NCBI GenBank assembly: GCA_035654455.1 | Contig: DASRWT010000065.1 | Location: 3,399 to 67,398 of the forward strand | From: Candidatus Nitrosocosmicus sp. | GTDB taxonomy: Bacteria > Methylomirabilota > Methylomirabilia > Rokubacteriales > CSP1-6 | Direction of reading: 5' to 3' | DNA: 64,000 bases | Part shown: positions 4,429-38,896 of the stretch, piece by piece | Numbering within the stretch: position 1 is the first letter of the stretch | Layout: each line of letters begins with the position of its first letter | Position numbers and translations under genes: made by a program | The notes under the pieces: model-generated | The model's input: only the letters and a program-made list of their open reading frames with translations | Databases searched by the model: none | Told to the model about the DNA's origin: nothing

Positions 4429-4631
4429 AGGCGCCATGCCCCTGGAAGAGGCGGCGCGAGGCAATCCGGCGCCACCGCGGGCACCCTGCCCACGGCTCCC
4501 GAGCGCGCGCCGGCGCGACACCTCGGCTCCCGCCCGGGCGCGCGAAGACGCCCCGGGGCAGCCGCGTGACCACGGCGACGCAGAAAGAGGAGGGGTGACG
4601 TCAGTCACGTGGGCCAGAGCGACCCGCGCGC

Positions 4632-4781
4632 ACGCTGGGTGGCGTTTGTCAGCGCGTCACCGCGCTGGTTTGCTCCACCCATCACGACCGTGCCAGCCGA
4701 GGGACCATCCGCCGAATCCTTCGATCGGTCCCTTCCTCGTCATCCGCCCGCGCGATCTCGCGCGGGACGGATCAGGCGCTA
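4632..4781 (-). ncRNA. glmS ribozyme: glmS ribozyme (GlcN6P-dependent self-cleaving riboswitch) in the glmS leader
   Basis: Minus-strand RNA reads A/GCGCCUGAUCCG-hairpin-CGGAUGACGAGGAAGGGACCGAUCGAAGGAUUCGGCGGAUGGUCCCUCGGCUG...CAAACCAGCGCGGUGACGCGCUGACAAACGCCACCC. This matches the conserved glmS ribozyme core (AGCGCC cleavage site, GACGAGG, UCGAA..UUCGGCGGAUG, CGGCUG, AAACCA-stem-GUGAC-stem-GACAAA). It lies about 200 nt upstream of the glmS ATG. Ends are approximate. Confidence 0.88.
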
Positions 4782-4969
4782 TGCTTCACGACCCCTCTAT
4801 CCCCTTCGGATCCGCTCCTCGACGCTCTCCTTTCCCTGATTCGACTCTAGCACGAGTGGTTGACCGTTGTCCGCGGCTGAGGGCGCATGTAGAATCGCGG
4901 CAGCCCGGGCCGCTCACGCGCTCGGGGATGATCCGGCACGCCGCGACCGCCGCACCGTGGAGGGCATTC

Positions 4970-6109
4970 ATGGACCAGGACATCACGCGCCGCGCGTTCG
5001 TGATCCACGTGGGCGCCGCCGCCGCGCTGCTGGGAGGCGCGGTCCCGTCCTCCGCGCAGACCCCGCCCGCCCCCGTGGCCGGCAAGGAAAAGCTGATCGT
5101 GCGGAGTCCGCGTCCGATCAACCTCGAGACGCCGCTCCGTGACCTGAGTGCCGAGATCACTCCCACCGACCTCTTCTTCGTTCGAAACAACTACGACGGG
5201 CCGGAGATCGATGCCAGCCAGTACGTCCTCAAGGTGGATGGAGAGGTGGACAACCCGCTCACGCTCCGCCTCGACGACCTGAGGCGGATGGAGCAGATCA
5301 CGCACACCATCACGCTCGAGTGCGCGGGCAACGGGCGCAGCTTCTACTCCCCCAAGGCCCCGGGCCTGCAGTGGGAAAACGGCGCGGTGGGGACCGCGGC
5401 CTGGAAAGGCGTGCGGCTGGCCGAGGTCCTGCGCCTGGCGCGTCCGCGTCCGAGCGCCTCCCATGTGGTGCCGGACGGAAACGACGCGCCCCCGACCGCT
5501 CAGGCGCCGGACTTCATCCGGAGCCATCCGATCTGGAAGGCGATGGAACCGCATACGATGATCGCAATCGAGATGAACGGGCGGCCGCTGCCCCACCTCC
5601 ACGGCGGCCCCGCGCGACTGATCGTCCCCGGCTGGATTGGCTCGGCGTCGATCAAGTGGCTGGTGCAGCTCACGCTGGCGGACAAGGAATGGGGCGGCCC
5701 CTTCATGCAGCGGAGCTACCGCTCCCCGCGAGTCGAGGATCCGCAACAGACGTATTCCCTCCAGTCTCTCGAATGCAAGTCCCTGATCGTGAGCCCGCTC
5801 GACGGCGCCAGGGTGGCGCCGGGCGCGCAGATGATGCGGGGGTACGCGTGGGCCGGAGAAGGCTCAGTCACCGGCGTGGACGTTTCCCTCGACGGCGGCA
5901 AGGCGTGGGCGCCGGCCGCGCTGAGCGGTCCAGCACACCGGTACGCCTGGCGCGGGTGGGAATTTCCGTGGACGGCGGTGAGCGGCGCGCACACCTTCAT
6001 GGCGCGGGCCAGCGACTCCTTGGGCCGCGTGCAGCCGGGTGGCAAGCCGCGCGATCCCCAGGGCTACCGCTGGAACGTGATCCACGCCGTCCGGATCGAT
6101 GTGGCGTAG
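4970..6109 (+). CDS. sulfite oxidase-family molybdopterin oxidoreductase (SorA-like), Tat-exported
   Basis: The real start is ATG 4970 (ggaggg SD), not track start 4436. Twin-arginine signal MDQDITRRAFVIHVGAAAALL, then FFVRNNY, ITLECAGNGR and WIGSASIKWL motifs of the SO/YedY family. Confidence 0.85.
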   Translation: MDQDITRRAFVIHVGAAAALLGGAVPSSAQTPPAPVAGKEKLIVRSPRPINLETPLRDLSAEITPTDLFFVRNNYDGPEIDASQYVLKVDGEVDNPLTLRLDDLRRMEQITHTITLECAGNGRSFYSPKAPGLQWENGAVGTAAWKGVRLAEVLRLARPRPSASHVVPDGNDAPPTAQAPDFIRSHPIWKAMEPHTMIAIEMNGRPLPHLHGGPARLIVPGWIGSASIKWLVQLTLADKEWGGPFMQRSYRSPRVEDPQQTYSLQSLECKSLIVSPLDGARVAPGAQMMRGYAWAGEGSVTGVDVSLDGGKAWAPAALSGPAHRYAWRGWEFPWTAVSGAHTFMARASDSLGRVQPGGKPRDPQGYRWNVIHAVRIDVA

Positions 6110-6431
6110 CCGGCTCTCACTGGCACTGGCCGCGCTGATCGTCGGAGCTCCCCTGGGATGGGGTTGGAGTTGGGCGGAGAGCCCGGGAAGTGGAGCGGCC
6201 CCATCTACCCTCTCGGCGCAGGTCGACAACCCCTTGCCGCGAGATCGTGACCAGCAGCTGGTGACGGGTCGATGCATCATCTGCCACAGCCTGGAGATGA
6301 TCGCCCAGCAGCGACAGACTCGCGCCGAATGGGCCGTGATCGTGGATCGGATGATCACTTACGGAATGCCGATGCAGCCGGGCGACCGGGAGCAGATCCT
6401 CACCTACCTCGCGAAGCACCTCGGCCAGTGA
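6099..6431 (+). CDS. small monoheme c-type cytochrome (SorB-like partner)
   Basis: 110-aa ORF overlapping the SorA-like stop by 11 nt. N-terminal signal-like segment, single CIICH heme-binding CxxCH motif and downstream Met residues. Confidence 0.65.
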   Translation: MWRSRLSLALAALIVGAPLGWGWSWAESPGSGAAPSTLSAQVDNPLPRDRDQQLVTGRCIICHSLEMIAQQRQTRAEWAVIVDRMITYGMPMQPGDREQILTYLAKHLGQ

Positions 6432-6446
6432 CCGATACCGCTCCGG

Positions 6447-7256
6447 TCACTTGCGGGCGGACGCCACGTGGGCCGGCTGGGGAAACGCCAGCCCGGTGTC
6501 GTCGAGGTGCGGCGCCAAGGTCTCGTTGATCTCGGAGATCAGCTCGCGCCGCTGAGGCTCCGTCAGCTGCGCGAGCAGCCCCAGCATGCCGGGGGCGCCG
6601 GCGGTGATGGTCCGGAAGAACGCCTCCGGCGAGGGAAAGCGCGTCATCTTCACCTCCGCCCGGATGACCAGGTCGCGGAAGCCGGCGCCGGCGATGACGC
6701 CGCGGAGGGCCGCGCGGTCGCCGAACGAGAAGGGCGGGAGCTTGGCCGCGTCCGCGCCCACGTACTTCGCCAGGGCACGCTCCATGGCGGCAAAGCCCGG
6801 GCAGTGCGCGCTCGACTTCCACACCGCAACGAAGAGCCGGCCGCCGGGCGCGAGCACACGGTGCATCTCACGGAGCGCGGCGGCCTTGTCGGGGAAGAAC
6901 TGCAGTCCCTGCTGGCAGAAGACGAAGTCGAAGGCGCCGTCGGGGAGCGGCATCGCCTGGGCGCTGCCCTCGAGCCACTCGATGGGAACGCCCGCCGCCG
7001 ACGCGCGGGCGGCCGCGAGCATGCCGGGGTTCAGGTCCAGGCCTACTATCCGCCCCGTAGGACCCACGCGGGGTGGCAGGAGGCGCGTGACCACGCCCGT
7101 GCCGCACGCCACGTCGAGCACGCGCGCGCCCGCCGCCGGGGCCGCGCGCTCGACGAGATCCGCCGCCCAGGGCCCGAACAGGCCGGGGACCATCTCGCGC
7201 TCGTAGACCTCGCCCGGGTTGGGGGCCGCCGGCGCCGCGGCAGCGGCATCCGCCAC
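6447..7256 (-). CDS. class I SAM-dependent methyltransferase
   Basis: 269-aa ORF with motif I VLDVACGTGVV and post-I/II motifs (LDLNPGML, DFVFCQQGLQF). GTG start overlaps the upstream stop (TAGTG). Confidence 0.85.
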   Translation of the reverse strand: MADAAAAAPAAPNPGEVYEREMVPGLFGPWAADLVERAAPAAGARVLDVACGTGVVTRLLPPRVGPTGRIVGLDLNPGMLAAARASAAGVPIEWLEGSAQAMPLPDGAFDFVFCQQGLQFFPDKAAALREMHRVLAPGGRLFVAVWKSSAHCPGFAAMERALAKYVGADAAKLPPFSFGDRAALRGVIAGAGFRDLVIRAEVKMTRFPSPEAFFRTITAGAPGMLGLLAQLTEPQRRELISEINETLAPHLDDTGLAFPQPAHVASARK

Positions 7257-7603
7257 TATCTCAGCACTGCCCGGTAGGTGGCTTCGTCGAAGCCGACGAG
7301 GAGGGTGCGCCCCTTGCGCAAGGTGGGCGCGCGAAGATTGCCGGAGGGACCGAGGAGCAGCCCCAGCAGGGTGGCCCGATCCGGCCGGTCCTTCTTCAGA
7401 TCGTGGTGAACCACCTTGGCGCCCTTGGCCACGTAGAGCTCGTCCACTTCCTTGAGCAGGGTCAGGGCCTGCTCGGGTCCCATCCGGATCTTCTTCGCGT
7501 CCACCTGCTCGGCGGTGTCGATCTTGGCCTTCGCAAGGAACCCTTGCGTCTTACCGCAAGTCATTCAGCCCTTCCGGTGATAGCTCCAGTCCACCCGCGC
7601 CAT
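7256..7603 (-). CDS. ArsC/Spx/YffB-fold thiol-disulfide protein, predicted selenoprotein (in-frame UGA at 7565..7567)
   Basis: Track ORF (7256..7564) starts MTCGKT. The same frame continues upstream through one TGA to ATG 7603, giving MARVDWSYHRKG-U-MTCGKTQGFLAKAKI. This restores strand beta1 and a U-x-x-C motif where the family has C-x-x-C. ATG 7603 is 10 nt after the upstream DinB stop. Confidence 0.7.
7532..7548 (-). promoter_or_regulatory. candidate bacterial SECIS hairpin
   Basis: 16 nt 3' of the UGA: 7-bp stem CGCAAGG/CCUUGCG with apical loop GUU. The spacing and the G/U-containing loop fit the bSECIS model. An alternative overlapping hairpin CUUGCG-GUAAGA-CGCAAG also exists. Confidence 0.5.
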
Positions 7604-7613
7604 GTGCGCGCCC

Positions 7614-8120
7614 CTACCTGGCGTCGGGAAGCCCGGCCGCCTTGCGGATCTTGGCGAGCTGGCCGGCGTGATCGTTCCAGTGGTAGTCGAAAAGCGCGCC
7701 GACATACACGGGAATGGGCACTTCCTCGTTCCCCATCAGCTCCTTGAAGAGCGGAATACGCGCCTTGCGGTGGAGGTCGCTGTCGGAGAGCCCCTGGAGA
7801 TAGCCATAGATGGCCTTGCGCTGGCTATCGAGCCCGTCCAGGAGCTGCTTGAGCGACGCGGTCGCCCGTGAGCCGCCGGTGTCGGCGAGGCCGCCCTTGA
7901 TCTCGACCACCGGCAGATTCGAGGTCGAGAAGCTCTTGAGGACGGCCACCGGGTCCCAGCCCTGCTCGAAGAGAAGGTGGCAGATCACCTGCCGCGTGGT
8001 CCACTCGCCGGGAGCATCGGACTTGTCGAGGTACGGCTCCATGCCCTGGAGCTGCTTATTGATATTCGCCCATGCCGCGTCGGACTTGGCCTTGAGCGCG
8101 TTCACCGTCGCCGTCGCCAT
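7614..8120 (-). CDS. DinB family protein
   Basis: Trimmed to ATG 8120 (gggagg SD 8 nt upstream). Motifs WTTRQVICHLL and DYHWNDHAGQLAKI are typical of DinB_2. Confidence 0.8.
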   Translation of the reverse strand: MATATVNALKAKSDAAWANINKQLQGMEPYLDKSDAPGEWTTRQVICHLLFEQGWDPVAVLKSFSTSNLPVVEIKGGLADTGGSRATASLKQLLDGLDSQRKAIYGYLQGLSDSDLHRKARIPLFKELMGNEEVPIPVYVGALFDYHWNDHAGQLAKIRKAAGLPDAR

Positions 8121-8382
8121 CGCCGGAGCCTCCCTGAGCAAGTGGTCCTGTCGGCGAGTATACCGGAACGCGCGGGCCCCGGCCGGAGTTGCTGGAAAAG
8201 GAACCGCGCCGGCGACGCCGGTCCGCAGCGCCGCCGACGCGCATCGAGCAGAACGAGCCCACACTCGCCCCACTCGACTTCGTGCGACCCGGATCAGCTT
8301 GGAATCATGAAAGCCGCGCCGGCCGAAACAACGGCCCGGATCAACCCGTCGCCCCGACCGACGCGGTCCACCGAGGGCCGGG

Positions 8383-36837: not shown

Positions 36838-38007
36838 ATGGCCCCGACGTTCGACTTCGATCGCCGCATCGACCGGCGCTCCACCGCGAGCAACAAGTGG
36901 CGGAAGTTCGACAAGGACGTGCTGCCGCTCTGGGTGGCCGACATGGACTTCGCCTCCCCCGAGCCCGTCGTGCGCGCACTGCGCGAGCGCGCCGAGCACG
37001 GCGTGTACGGATATGTGTACGAGGAGCCCGAGTTCTTCGAGGTGGTGGCCGACCGCATCCACAAGCGGTACGGCTGGAAGGTCGGCCCCGAGGCGGTGGT
37101 GCTGCTGCCCGGCGTGATCGCGGGGCTCAACATGGCCGCGCGCGTCTTCGCCGCTCCCGGCGACGGGCTCCTGGAGCAGGTGCCGGTGTACCCGCCCATT
37201 CTCCGGTGCCCGGGCAACATGGGCCTGACCCGCGACGAGGCGCCGCTGGCCCGCCGCGCCGACGGCCGCTACGAGGTGGACTGGGACGCGTTCGAGCGCG
37301 CCATTCACGGCCGCACGCGCGCCTTCATCCTCTGCAACCCGCACAACCCCACCGGGCGCGTCTACACGCGCGAGGAGCTGGCGCGGATGGCGGAGATCTG
37401 CGGGCGGCGCGGGGTGGCCATCATCGCCGACGAGATCCACTGCGATCTGATCTACGCGGGCCAGCGCCATGTGCCCATCGCCTCGCTGGACGCCGAGGTG
37501 GCCGCGCGCACCGTCACCCTCATGTCGCCGTCCAAGACCTTCAATCTGGCCGGCCTCAAGTGCGCCATCGCGGTGGTCACCGACGCGGCGCTCCGTGAGA
37601 AGTTCCTCGCCACCAAGGTGGATCTGGTGGCGAACCCCAATGTCTTCGGCTTCGCCGCCGCGCATGCCGCCTATCGCGACGGCGGGCCCTGGCTCGACGC
37701 CCTCATGGTGTATCTCGAGGCCAACCGCGATTACACCGTGACGTACGTGCGCGAGCACTTCCCCGGCGTGGTGATCTATCCGCCCGAGGGCCTCTACCTC
37801 GCCTGGCTCGACTTCCGGGGGGCGGGAATTCCCGGCCACGATCCGTACACGTTCTTCCTCGAGCAGGCGCGGGTGGCGCTCAACGACGGCGTGACCTTCG
37901 GCCCCGGCGGCCAGGGCTTCGCGCGGCTGAACTTCGGCTGCCCGCGCGCCATGCTCACCGAGGGCCTCGATCGCATGCGCGACGCCTTCCGCCGCTTGCC
38001 CCGCTGA
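36838..38007 (+). CDS. PLP-dependent aminotransferase / C-S lyase (MalY/PatB family)
   Basis: 389 aa from MAPTFDFDRRIDRRSTASNKW (ggagga SD). Motifs NPHNPTGRVYT and SPSKTFNLAGLK (PLP lysine). Confidence 0.9.
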   Translation: MAPTFDFDRRIDRRSTASNKWRKFDKDVLPLWVADMDFASPEPVVRALRERAEHGVYGYVYEEPEFFEVVADRIHKRYGWKVGPEAVVLLPGVIAGLNMAARVFAAPGDGLLEQVPVYPPILRCPGNMGLTRDEAPLARRADGRYEVDWDAFERAIHGRTRAFILCNPHNPTGRVYTREELARMAEICGRRGVAIIADEIHCDLIYAGQRHVPIASLDAEVAARTVTLMSPSKTFNLAGLKCAIAVVTDAALREKFLATKVDLVANPNVFGFAAAHAAYRDGGPWLDALMVYLEANRDYTVTYVREHFPGVVIYPPEGLYLAWLDFRGAGIPGHDPYTFFLEQARVALNDGVTFGPGGQGFARLNFGCPRAMLTEGLDRMRDAFRRLPR

Positions 38008-38104
38008 CCGCCGTCGGTTGCCGACCCTCCGCGCGCATGCTAGGTTGCGCTGGTCGTCATCCCCTGCACTCTCGGCCCTGCCGTTTCGGCCAAAGGAGAC
38101 CGTA

Positions 38105-38896
38105 GTGAGAGAAAACAAGCTCCGCACGATCTGGGCGCGCGGCGAGGCGGTGGTGAACGGGTGGCTGGCCATTCCCAGCGCGTTCTCGGCGGAGGTGATG
38201 GCCCATCAGGGCTTCGACTCCCTGGTGGTGGACATGCAGCACGGCGTCGTCGACTACCAGGTGGCGGTGACCATGCTCCAGGCCATCTCCACCACCGACG
38301 TGGTGCCGATGGCGCGCGTGCCGTGGAACGATCCCGCACGGCTCATGAAGATCCTCGACGCCGGCGTCTACGGCGTGATCTGCCCCATGATCAATACGCG
38401 CGAGGAGGCGGAAGCGCTGGTGCGGCACTGCAAGTATCCGCCGCGCGGCCACCGCTCCTGGGGTCCGGTGCGCGCCTCCATCTACGCGGGCGCGGACTAT
38501 GGCGACCACGCCAACGACGACATCGTGGTCATGCCCATGATCGAGACCGCGGAGGCGCTGAAGAACCTCGACGACATCCTGACCGTGCCCGGGGTGGACG
38601 CCATCTACGTGGGCCCCTCCGATCTCTCCCTCGCGCTGGGCTGCAAGCCGCGGCTCGACCAGACCGACGCGCCGGTGGTGGAGGCGCAGCAGAAGATCGT
38701 GGAGGCCTGCAAGAAGCACGGTGTGATCGCGGGCATCCACAACAGCACCTCCGCCTACTCGCTCAAGATGATCGAGGCCGGCTACCAGTTCGTGACGCTC
38801 GCCAGCGACAGCCGCTTTCTCGCCCAGCGTGCCGCGGAGGAAGCCGCCGCGGTCAAGAAGACGGGCGTGAAGGCCGGCAAGCTGCCGGGCTACTAG
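38105..38896 (+). CDS. HpcH/HpaI family aldolase
   Basis: 263 aa from GTG 38105 (aaggag SD). Motifs DSLVVDMQHG, RVPWND and MIETAEAL, a class II aldolase/citrate-lyase-beta-like barrel. Confidence 0.88.
   Translation: MRENKLRTIWARGEAVVNGWLAIPSAFSAEVMAHQGFDSLVVDMQHGVVDYQVAVTMLQAISTTDVVPMARVPWNDPARLMKILDAGVYGVICPMINTREEAEALVRHCKYPPRGHRSWGPVRASIYAGADYGDHANDDIVVMPMIETAEALKNLDDILTVPGVDAIYVGPSDLSLALGCKPRLDQTDAPVVEAQQKIVEACKKHGVIAGIHNSTSAYSLKMIEAGYQFVTLASDSRFLAQRAAEEAAAVKKTGVKAGKLPGY

What the first reader, a model, noticed from the sequence alone, without database searches (positions are those of the whole stretch)
7256..7603. ArsC/Spx-fold gene that is complete only with an in-frame UGA read as selenocysteine
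The annotated-looking ORF (7256..7564) begins MTCGKT and lacks the first beta strand and the first redox residue of the fold. The same frame extends 5' through a single TGA (7565..7567) to ATG 7603, which lies 10 nt after the stop of the upstream gene. The extended product starts MARVDWSYHRKG-U-MTCGKTQGFLAKAKI. The UGA therefore occupies the position of the N-terminal Cys of the C-x-x-C motif in ArsC/Spx/YffB proteins (beta1, then G-C-x-x-C-x-K-A). A SECIS-like hairpin starts 16 nt downstream (7532..7548), with a 7-bp stem and a GUU loop. ArsC-like selenoproteins have been reported from comparative genomics, but this gene would be missed or truncated by standard gene callers.
Basis: partly seen in the sequence, partly recalled or inferred. 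Interest (0 to 1): 0.7.

Follow-up and report, generated by a model that had tools for sequence, protein, structure and literature searches.

The report
Known ArsC-like selenoprotein gene, mis-called short
This is a real selenocysteine-encoding gene for a small ArsC/Spx-fold redox protein, read through an in-frame UGA with the help of a conserved RNA hairpin, but it belongs to a selenoprotein family that is already catalogued, so it is a correct call and not a discovery.

Summary
On the minus strand, ATG 7603 opens a frame that passes through one TGA (7567..7565) into the 102-aa ORF ending at TAG 7258..7256. The 12 upstream codons (MARVDWSYHRKG) match residue for residue the conserved N-terminus of Cys-containing homologs (DWSYHRNG-C-xTC), so the UGA sits at the first Cys of a CxxC motif.

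Of 80 species-representative loci, 63 carry TGA and 17 carry TGC/TGT at this codon. In 36 of 63 TGA sequences (62 loci plus the window) the next codon cannot be a start.

The protein scores 142 bits (cutoff 85) against NCBIfam NF041106 "ArsC family (seleno)protein". That family is listed in the 2008 GOS selenoproteome and in 2022 and 2026 reviews as "arsenate reductase-like protein, UxxC".

Two things remain open. No Sec machinery lies in the window and the rest of the genome is not available. The biochemical function is also unknown: the protein is not a canonical ArsC or Spx by model score. Verdict: interpretation supported, already known, low interest.

The parts
7256..7603 (-). Full-length selenoprotein CDS: 115 aa plus stop, MARVDWSYHRKG-U-MTCGKTQ...YRAVLR
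   Evidence: Sequence read. NCBIfam NF041106 scores 142.3 bits against a cutoff of 85 and covers residues 4-110. The N-terminus aligns with Cys homologs.
7601..7603 (-). True start codon ATG, 10 nt after the upstream gene's stop
   Evidence: A start codon 12 codons upstream of the TGA/TGC is the recurrent arrangement across loci.
7565..7567 (-). In-frame UGA read as selenocysteine (residue 13), the first position of the U-x-x-C motif
   Evidence: 63 of 80 related loci have TGA here and 17 have TGC/TGT. It aligns with Cys13 of homologs and with Spx Cys10.
7556..7558 (-). Cys16 codon (TGC), the partner residue of the UxxC motif
   Evidence: Invariant column C16 in alignment A1.
7532..7548 (-). 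SECIS-like hairpin: 5' arm 7548..7542, loop GUU 7541..7539, 3' arm 7538..7532
   Evidence: -8.8 kcal/mol. 96% of cells are paired across 62 distinct sequences. The closing pair is G-C in 39, A-U in 22 and mismatched in 1. Pairing collapses when the register is slid. RNAalifold consensus agrees. The hairpin is absent from Cys-form loci.
7256..7564 (-). The 102-aa ORF that standard gene callers report (a truncated artefact)
   Evidence: The 50 nearest database proteins are all called at 102 aa.
7614..8273 (-). Upstream co-directional gene of the DinB_2 superfamily (start codon uncertain)
   Evidence: Pfam PF12867 scores 25.8 bits against a GA of 24.8. It is a neighbour only in L001-L003.
6447..7256 (-). 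Downstream class I SAM-dependent methyltransferase; its GTG start overlaps the selenoprotein stop by 1 nt
   Evidence: It is a neighbour only in L001-L003.

Best explanation
The locus encodes a 115-residue selenoprotein of the ArsC/Spx/YffB branch of the thioredoxin-like fold, a member of NCBIfam family NF041106.

Translation. It starts at AUG 7603. At UGA 7567..7565 the ribosome does not terminate. A 17-nt hairpin lies 16 nt downstream, which puts its GUU loop 23 nt from the UGA. This hairpin acts as a bacterial SECIS element that recruits SelB-GTP-Sec-tRNA(Sec), so selenocysteine is inserted and translation continues to TAG 7258..7256.

Protein. Sec13 follows strand beta1 and sits at the N-terminal cap of helix 1, with Cys16 one turn later. 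The U-x-x-C pair most likely cycles between the selenol/thiol state and a selenenylsulfide, making this a small thiol/selenol-disulfide oxidoreductase whose physiological substrate is unknown.

What is shown: the coding continuity, the Sec/Cys column, the conserved hairpin, the family membership and the fold. What is inferred: SelB-dependent Sec insertion, the redox chemistry and the function.
For: - Sequence and ORFs.
- Family: NF041106 scores 142.3 bits against a cutoff of 85, over the whole model.
- N-terminus: the extension aligns residue for residue with Cys homologs.
- Sec/Cys column: 63 of 80 species-level loci have TGA and 17 have TGC/TGT.
- No alternative start: in 36 of 63 TGA sequences (62 loci plus the window) the following codon is Lys, Thr or Gln, so no start codon exists there.
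- Hairpin in TGA sequences (n = 63, the window included): all 7 pairs form in 46, 6 pairs in 16, 5 pairs in 1, and the loop is GUU in 60. In Cys forms at most 4 of 7 pairs form.
- Compensatory change: GGG-UUC in 37, GAG-UUU in 22, GAG-UUC in 1, GGG-UUU in 0. Formal pair counts and slide controls agree, as does RNAalifold.
- Codon choice: the stem uses Leu CUU and Gln CAA, which are 2.4% and 2.1% of those codons in this window's genes. All 63 TGA forms use CUU, against 1 of 17 Cys forms.
- SECIS criteria: all published bSECIS criteria are met (criteria from PMC13188914; energy).
- Fold: a PDB profile search aligns UxxC with the Spx CxxC. The AlphaFold model of a Cys homolog has pLDDT 91.3, with beta1 followed by CxxC at the helix-1 cap. 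Foldseek's best hits are Spx, YffB and ArsC-related proteins.
- Lineage: relatives are Rokubacteria/Methylomirabilota, a phylum reported to include a MAG with 63 predicted selenoprotein genes and Sec-type hydrogenases.
Against: - No tRNA-Sec, selA, selB or selD lies in the 64-kb window, and the rest of the genome could not be reached.
- Sec insertion has not been shown experimentally for any member of this family, as far as the papers read here show.
- Single-sequence folding prefers a competing hairpin.
- The covariation rests on one pair whose two states may track phylogeny and GC content.
- Pfam ArsC is below its gathering score for this sequence (20.2 against 24), and Foldseek TM-scores are only about 0.55. 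The protein is a diverged relative and its chemistry is inferred by analogy.
Confidence: 0.88

Rival explanations
1. The UGA plus SECIS is decoded as cysteine, not selenocysteine. A non-canonical tRNA (tRNA-ReC, also called SelC*) would be delivered by SelB, giving a CxxC protein from a TGA-containing gene.
For: [quoted passage not shown] 2018, as cited in PMC13582414). Sequence data alone cannot tell Sec from Cys insertion. 17 of 80 orthologous loci work with a plain Cys codon.
Against: tRNA-ReC was found in a minority of genomes in the study read (about 13-17%), and in that study's UXXU-type genomes it was found in addition to canonical tRNA-Sec. Keeping a costly TGA plus hairpin in 63 of 80 species only to insert Cys is hard to explain when TGC is one mutation away. 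No such tRNA is in the window.
Confidence: 0.05
2. The gene really starts at Met 7564 and makes a 102-aa protein. The upstream frame and the TGA are non-coding leftovers or a decayed pseudogene N-terminus.
For: ATG 7564 is preceded by an SD-like GGAAGGG. All gene callers report 102 aa. The single-sequence hairpin statistics are modest.
Against: The 12 upstream codons are conserved at the amino-acid level across phyla and are identical in pattern to Cys homologs. 36 of 63 TGA sequences have no start codon after the TGA. The truncated product would lack strand beta1 and the first redox residue. The NF041106 model includes the extension.
Confidence: 0.02
3. There is SECIS-independent stop-codon read-through (near-cognate Trp or another residue) or a reassigned UGA in this organism.
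For: One database protein (P0053) shows Trp at this column.
Against: That Trp is an artefact: the DNA is TGA and a caller applied another code. The 23 window genes used for the codon count contain no internal stop codon of any kind. At least one adjacent gene pair is separated by a TGA that fits an ordinary stop. The hairpin is specific to the TGA forms, which points to SelB-type recoding.
Confidence: 0.01

Closest known systems
NCBIfam NF041106, 'ArsC family (seleno)protein' (ArsC_rel_Se_1). Equivalent to 'Arsenate reductase-like protein, UxxC' in Zhang et al. 2026 (PMC13188914) and Zhang 2022 (PMC9312934), and traced by the 2026 review to the GOS selenoproteome study (PMC2398784), which lists 'Arsenate reductase 2, cd03032, UxxC'
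   Same: Full-length match well above the curated cutoff. It has the same UxxC motif, the same Sec/Cys column and the same size of about 115 aa. Close relatives in NCBI already carry this name.
   Different: Nothing substantive. This copy is one more Rokubacteria/Methylomirabilota ortholog, 92% identical to L001. Like most database entries it would be called 13 residues short.
Spx/MgsR redox-sensing RNA-polymerase-binding regulators (TIGR01617; PDB 1Z3E, 6GHB)
   Same: Best sequence-profile and structural matches. The CxxC sits at the same place, after beta1 at the helix-1 cap.
   Different: It scores 22.5 bits against a cutoff of 75. TM is only about 0.55 with rmsd 6-7 A. Identity is 22-25%. 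The lineages differ: Rokubacteria, Planctomycetes and Acidobacteria here, whereas from general knowledge Spx is mainly a Firmicutes protein. Nothing here indicates RNA polymerase binding.
Glutaredoxin-coupled arsenate reductase ArsC (R773 type, TIGR00014) and YffB (PDB 1RW1)
   Same: Same superfamily fold. The nucleophilic Cys of ArsC occupies the same N-terminal position (general knowledge of the family; Foldseek hits 3F0I, 3RDW and 1RW1).
   Different: No TIGR00014 hit at E <= 1. R773 ArsC structures are not among the profile hits at E <= 1. The motif here is a dithiol-type UxxC, not a single catalytic Cys. There are no ars genes nearby.
Bacterial SECIS consensus (bSECISearch model, Zhang and Gladyshev 2005, as summarised in PMC13188914)
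   Same: 3-nt loop starting GU, 7-bp upper stem, 23 nt from UGA to loop, -8.8 kcal/mol. All values are within the model.
   Different: The loop is at the minimum size, and there is no family-wide lower stem. SelB binding is untested.

Membership tests
NCBIfam NF041106 ArsC family (seleno)protein | Whole-protein HMM score at or above the curated cutoff (85 bits) | tested here: met
   142.3 bits, E = 7.3e-42, residues 4-110 on model positions 1-107 of 107, with U replaced by C.
NCBIfam NF041106 ArsC family (seleno)protein | U/C-x-x-C motif, with an in-frame TGA aligned to Cys of non-selenoprotein homologs | tested here: met
   The window UGA aligns with Cys13. 63 loci have TGA and 17 have TGC/TGT at the same codon.
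Bacterial selenoprotein gene (SelB/SECIS recoding) | Apical loop of 3-9 nt and upper stem of 4-16 bp | tested here: met
   Loop GUU (3 nt) and a 7-bp stem. Criteria from PMC13188914.
Bacterial selenoprotein gene (SelB/SECIS recoding) | G in the first two loop positions, usually followed by G or U | tested here: met
   The loop is GUU in 60 of 63 TGA sequences, GGU in 2 and GUA in 1.
Bacterial selenoprotein gene (SelB/SECIS recoding) | 16-37 nt between the UGA and the apical loop; MFE <= -7.5 kcal/mol | tested here: met
   16-nt spacer plus 7-nt arm gives 23 nt. Energy is -8.8 kcal/mol.
Bacterial selenoprotein gene (SelB/SECIS recoding) | Hairpin conserved in TGA orthologs and not required in Cys orthologs | tested here: met
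   96% paired with one compensatory pair in TGA forms. At most 4 of 7 pairs in Cys forms. Stem codons CUU and CAA are otherwise avoided.
Bacterial selenoprotein gene (SelB/SECIS recoding) | Genome encodes selC (tRNA-Sec), selA, selB and selD | not testable with these tools
   None were found in the window or in the 60 loci scanned for tRNAs. The source genome is not in the species-representative collection. There is phylum-level support from the literature only.
Bacterial selenoprotein gene (SelB/SECIS recoding) | Selenium demonstrably incorporated at the UGA | not testable with these tools
   This needs 75Se labelling or mass spectrometry.
Pfam PF03960 ArsC family | Score at or above the gathering threshold (24 bits) | tested here: not met
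   20.2 bits for the extended protein and 16.0 for the truncated one. Several Cys homologs do carry precomputed PF03960 hits, and fold-level kinship is supported.
Arsenate reductase ArsC, glutaredoxin-coupled (TIGR00014) | Match to the equivalog model | tested here: not met
   No TIGR00014 hit at E <= 1. No R773-type ArsC structure appears among PDB profile hits at E <= 1.
Spx/MgsR regulators (TIGR01617) | Score at or above the cutoff (75.05 bits) | tested here: not met
   22.5 bits. Structural similarity is only moderate, TM about 0.55.

The most novel reading that the evidence does not exclude
The family might not be a generic oxidoreductase. It could be an Spx-like redox sensor in which a selenenylsulfide switch (Sec13-Cys16) controls binding to a partner such as RNA polymerase. 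That would make it a selenoprotein transcription regulator in Rokubacteria, Planctomycetes and Acidobacteria. The only support is that Spx proteins are the nearest solved structures. Nothing here tests partner binding.
Probability: 0.04. Interest if true: 0.65.

Novelty: already known. Interest (0 to 1): 0.15.

Why it matters
As biology it adds little. The family, its UxxC motif and its Sec/Cys dimorphism are already catalogued, and NCBI has a curated model for it.

Its practical value is for annotation. The 50 closest database proteins are all truncated to 102 aa, including NCBI records already named "(seleno)protein", and one entry carries a spurious Trp at the Sec position. The comparative data gathered here define the family's SECIS as a compact 7-bp/GUU hairpin (ACGCARGR-GUU-YCUUGCS; the outermost pair forms in 46 of 63) placed 16 nt after the UGA. 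That could be used to repair these gene calls automatically. The function of the family is still unknown and no member appears to have been studied experimentally.

Tried and rejected
- Alternative hairpin 7560..7543 (CUUGCG-GUAAGA-CGCAAG), which single-sequence MFE prefers. Rejected: one pair is broken in 41 of 62 sequences and nothing exceeds the shuffles.
- A 9-bp lower stem flanking the hairpin, seen in some Rokubacteria. It is only 62% paired family-wide and mostly unformed in the window, so it is not part of the core element.
- Functional inference from gene neighbourhood. The DinB_2 and methyltransferase neighbours are shared only with L001-L003, and no neighbour family occurs in more than 11 of 80 loci.
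- An ArsM link for the methyltransferase. It gives only generic class I SAM-MTase matches far below the ArsM cutoffs.
- Sec machinery. ARAGORN on the window and on 60 loci, and NCBIfam scans of 30 large window ORFs, found none.
- Other selenoprotein candidates in the window. Two TGA scans found none convincing.
- Rfam at gathering thresholds. It found only a glmS ribozyme and no SECIS family hit.
- Exact-match search for the source genome. No hit.

Full report
**1. Observation**

The minus strand reads as follows:
- TAG 7616..7614 is the stop of the upstream gene, followed by 10 nt.
- ATG is at 7603..7601.
- GCG CGG GTG GAC TGG AGC TAT CAC CGG AAG GGC encodes A R V D W S Y H R K G.
- TGA is at 7567..7565.
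- ATG 7564 follows, and the frame runs to TAG 7258..7256.

The ORF lister reports only the 102-aa ORF 7256..7564. The hairpin CGCAAGG-GUU-CCUUGCG lies at 7548..7532 and begins 16 nt after the UGA. All coordinates in the finding are correct.

**2. Is the extension coding?**

A database search with the extended protein (U written as C) returned 2085 relatives. The 50 best (81-97% identity) are all called at 102 aa. More distant ones (56-66% identity) are mostly 115-117 aa and cover 97-100% of the query.

Aligned, the full-length proteins start x-x-x-DWSYHRNG-C-x-T-C-G-K-T-Q, and the window's MARVDWSYHRKG-[UGA]-MTCGKTQ matches this residue for residue. In a second alignment of 29 full-length homologs, W, S, Y, H, R and G of this segment are invariant.

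**3. Sec/Cys column across genomes**

80 loci were fetched from one-genome-per-species contigs. They are mainly Rokubacteria/Methylomirabilota, Planctomycetota and Acidobacteriota, and the nearest, L001, is 92% identical.
- The codon at this column is TGA in 62 loci plus the window, TGC in 14 and TGT in 3.
- The one unparsed locus, L069, is also TGA: HRPG-U-KGC.
- The totals are therefore 63 TGA and 17 Cys.
- Among the 63 TGA sequences (62 loci plus the window), the next residue is Met in 26, Lys in 17, Thr in 11, Gln in 8 and Val in 1. So 36 have no possible start codon after the TGA.
- A start codon 12 codons upstream is the recurrent arrangement.

This excludes both a pseudogene and a genuine Met-14 start.

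**4. The RNA element**

In the 63 TGA sequences the 7-bp stem is complete in 46, has 6 pairs in 16 and 5 pairs in 1. The loop is GUU in 60. In the 17 Cys sequences at most 4 of the 7 positions can pair.
- The closing pair is G-C in 40, A-U in 22 and a mismatch in 1. At codon level this is GGG-UUC in 37, GAG-UUU in 22, GAG-UUC in 1 and GGG-UUU in 0. A Gly/Glu replacement thus covaries with a synonymous Phe codon.
- RNAalifold recovers the helix.
- Pair counting gives 96.1% paired against 30-64% for slid registers, and no shuffle reaches the observed pairing or covariation.
- The two states of the closing pair may follow phylogeny and GC content, so this is supportive evidence, not proof.

Codon choice gives independent support. 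In 8921 codons of this window's genes, CUU is 2.4% of Leu codons and CAA is 2.1% of Gln codons, yet the stem uses both. All 63 TGA forms use CUU at that Leu, against 1 of 17 Cys forms.

Two other structures were tested and set aside. The competing hairpin that single-sequence MFE prefers has one pair broken in 41 of 62 sequences and no signal above shuffles. A lower stem seen in some Rokubacteria is only 62% paired and mostly absent in the window.

The published bSECIS model requires a 3-9 nt loop, a 4-16 bp stem, G in the first two loop positions, 16-37 nt from UGA to loop, and MFE <= -7.5 kcal/mol (PMC13188914). The window element has 3 nt, 7 bp, GUU, 23 nt and -8.8 kcal/mol.

**5. The protein**
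- NCBIfam NF041106 "ArsC family (seleno)protein" matches at 142.3 bits against a cutoff of 85, over the whole model.
- Pfam ArsC is just below threshold, 20.2 against 24. The match reaches profile position 1 only when the extension is included.
- A profile of the family finds a putative arsenate reductase (2M46), Spx and YffB in the PDB at E of 1e-5 to 5e-3. It aligns C13-x-x-C16 with Spx C10-x-x-C13.
- An AlphaFold model of a natural Cys-form homolog (P0051) has pLDDT 91.3. It shows beta1 at residues 7-10, then the CxxC at the N-cap of helix 15-26.
- Foldseek's best hits are Spx, YffB and "ArsC family related" proteins, but at TM about 0.55.
- The protein does not reach the Spx model cutoff (22.5 against 75) and gives no hit to the ArsC equivalog.

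It shares the fold and the motif position, but I do not file it as an arsenate reductase or an Spx.

**6. Context**

The gene lies 10 nt after a DinB_2-superfamily gene and overlaps by 1 nt the start of a class I SAM methyltransferase. These neighbours recur only in L001-L003. No neighbour family is present in more than 11 of 80 loci. Context therefore says nothing about function.

**7. Sec machinery**

The window has no tRNA-Sec. None of the 30 large ORFs scanned is SelA, SelB or SelD, and no other convincing TGA-interrupted gene was found. The source genome is not among the species representatives.

The literature read here reports a Methylomirabilota MAG with 63 predicted selenoprotein genes and Sec-type hydrogenases in that phylum. 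The same paper notes that tRNA-ReC can make SelB and a SECIS insert Cys at UGA. That reading cannot be excluded without the genome.

**8. Comparison with what is known**

ArsC-like selenoproteins were reported in 2006 (PMC1794560). The 2008 GOS selenoproteome lists a UxxC form, "Arsenate reductase 2, cd03032" (PMC2398784). It reappears in the 2022 review and in the 2026 review, the latter explicitly under NF041106. NCBI already names near relatives "ArsC family (seleno)protein", although those records are still 102 aa long.

**9. Verdict**

The thing itself is already known. The remaining unknowns are experimental proof of Sec insertion and the protein's substrate.

Noticed in passing
window 4626..4791 (-) and 2650..~4480 (-): A glmS ribozyme (Rfam RF00234, 91 bits) lies directly upstream of a GlmS gene (NCBIfam 577 bits). 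It is a standard arrangement but sits in a Rokubacteria-like genome.
   Followed up: no
window 4436..6109 (+) and 6099..6431 (+): A SorA-like molybdoenzyme and a SorB-like c-type cytochrome overlap as a pair. Both are well below the NCBIfam equivalog cutoffs (267 against 600 and 40 against 93), so they are divergent sulfite-dehydrogenase relatives.
   Followed up: no
L081 337..339 (protein P0053): A database protein of this family shows Trp at the Sec column. Its DNA is TGA followed by the same hairpin, so a gene caller translated TGA as Trp. It is a Sec form in disguise.
   Followed up: yes
window 7562..7567 (-) and alignment A2 columns 4-9: The residue after Sec is Met in 26 of 63 TGA forms and in 0 of 17 Cys forms. 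This creates UGA-AUG preceded by an SD-like GGAAGGG. It explains the tidy 102-aa miscalls. Whether re-initiation yields a truncated product when selenium is scarce is untested. The base after the UGA is A in 54 of 63.
   Followed up: partly
Homologous-protein output: The truncation is systematic. The 50 best hits are all 102 aa, including NCBI records already labelled 'ArsC family (seleno)protein' (P0036, P0074).
   Followed up: partly
L043, L003, L031, L049, L074: Loci 70-84% identical to the window gene sit in MAGs labelled Nitrosotalea (an archaeon), Verrucomicrobiia, Dormiibacterota and Limnocylindria. They are probably mis-binned Rokubacteria-like contigs, or else horizontal transfer.
   Followed up: no
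window 38310..38401 (-): ARAGORN calls a 92-nt tRNA-Val(GAC), which is unusually long for tRNA-Val, inside a plus-strand ORF with a strong coding signature (37931..38896). It may be a false positive.
   Followed up: no
window 6447..7256 (-): The downstream methyltransferase's weak NCBIfam matches include ArsM-type selenoprotein fusion families (NF041537, NF047649). The scores are far below cutoff (about 75 against 460-510), so this reflects only the shared SAM-binding domain.
   Followed up: partly
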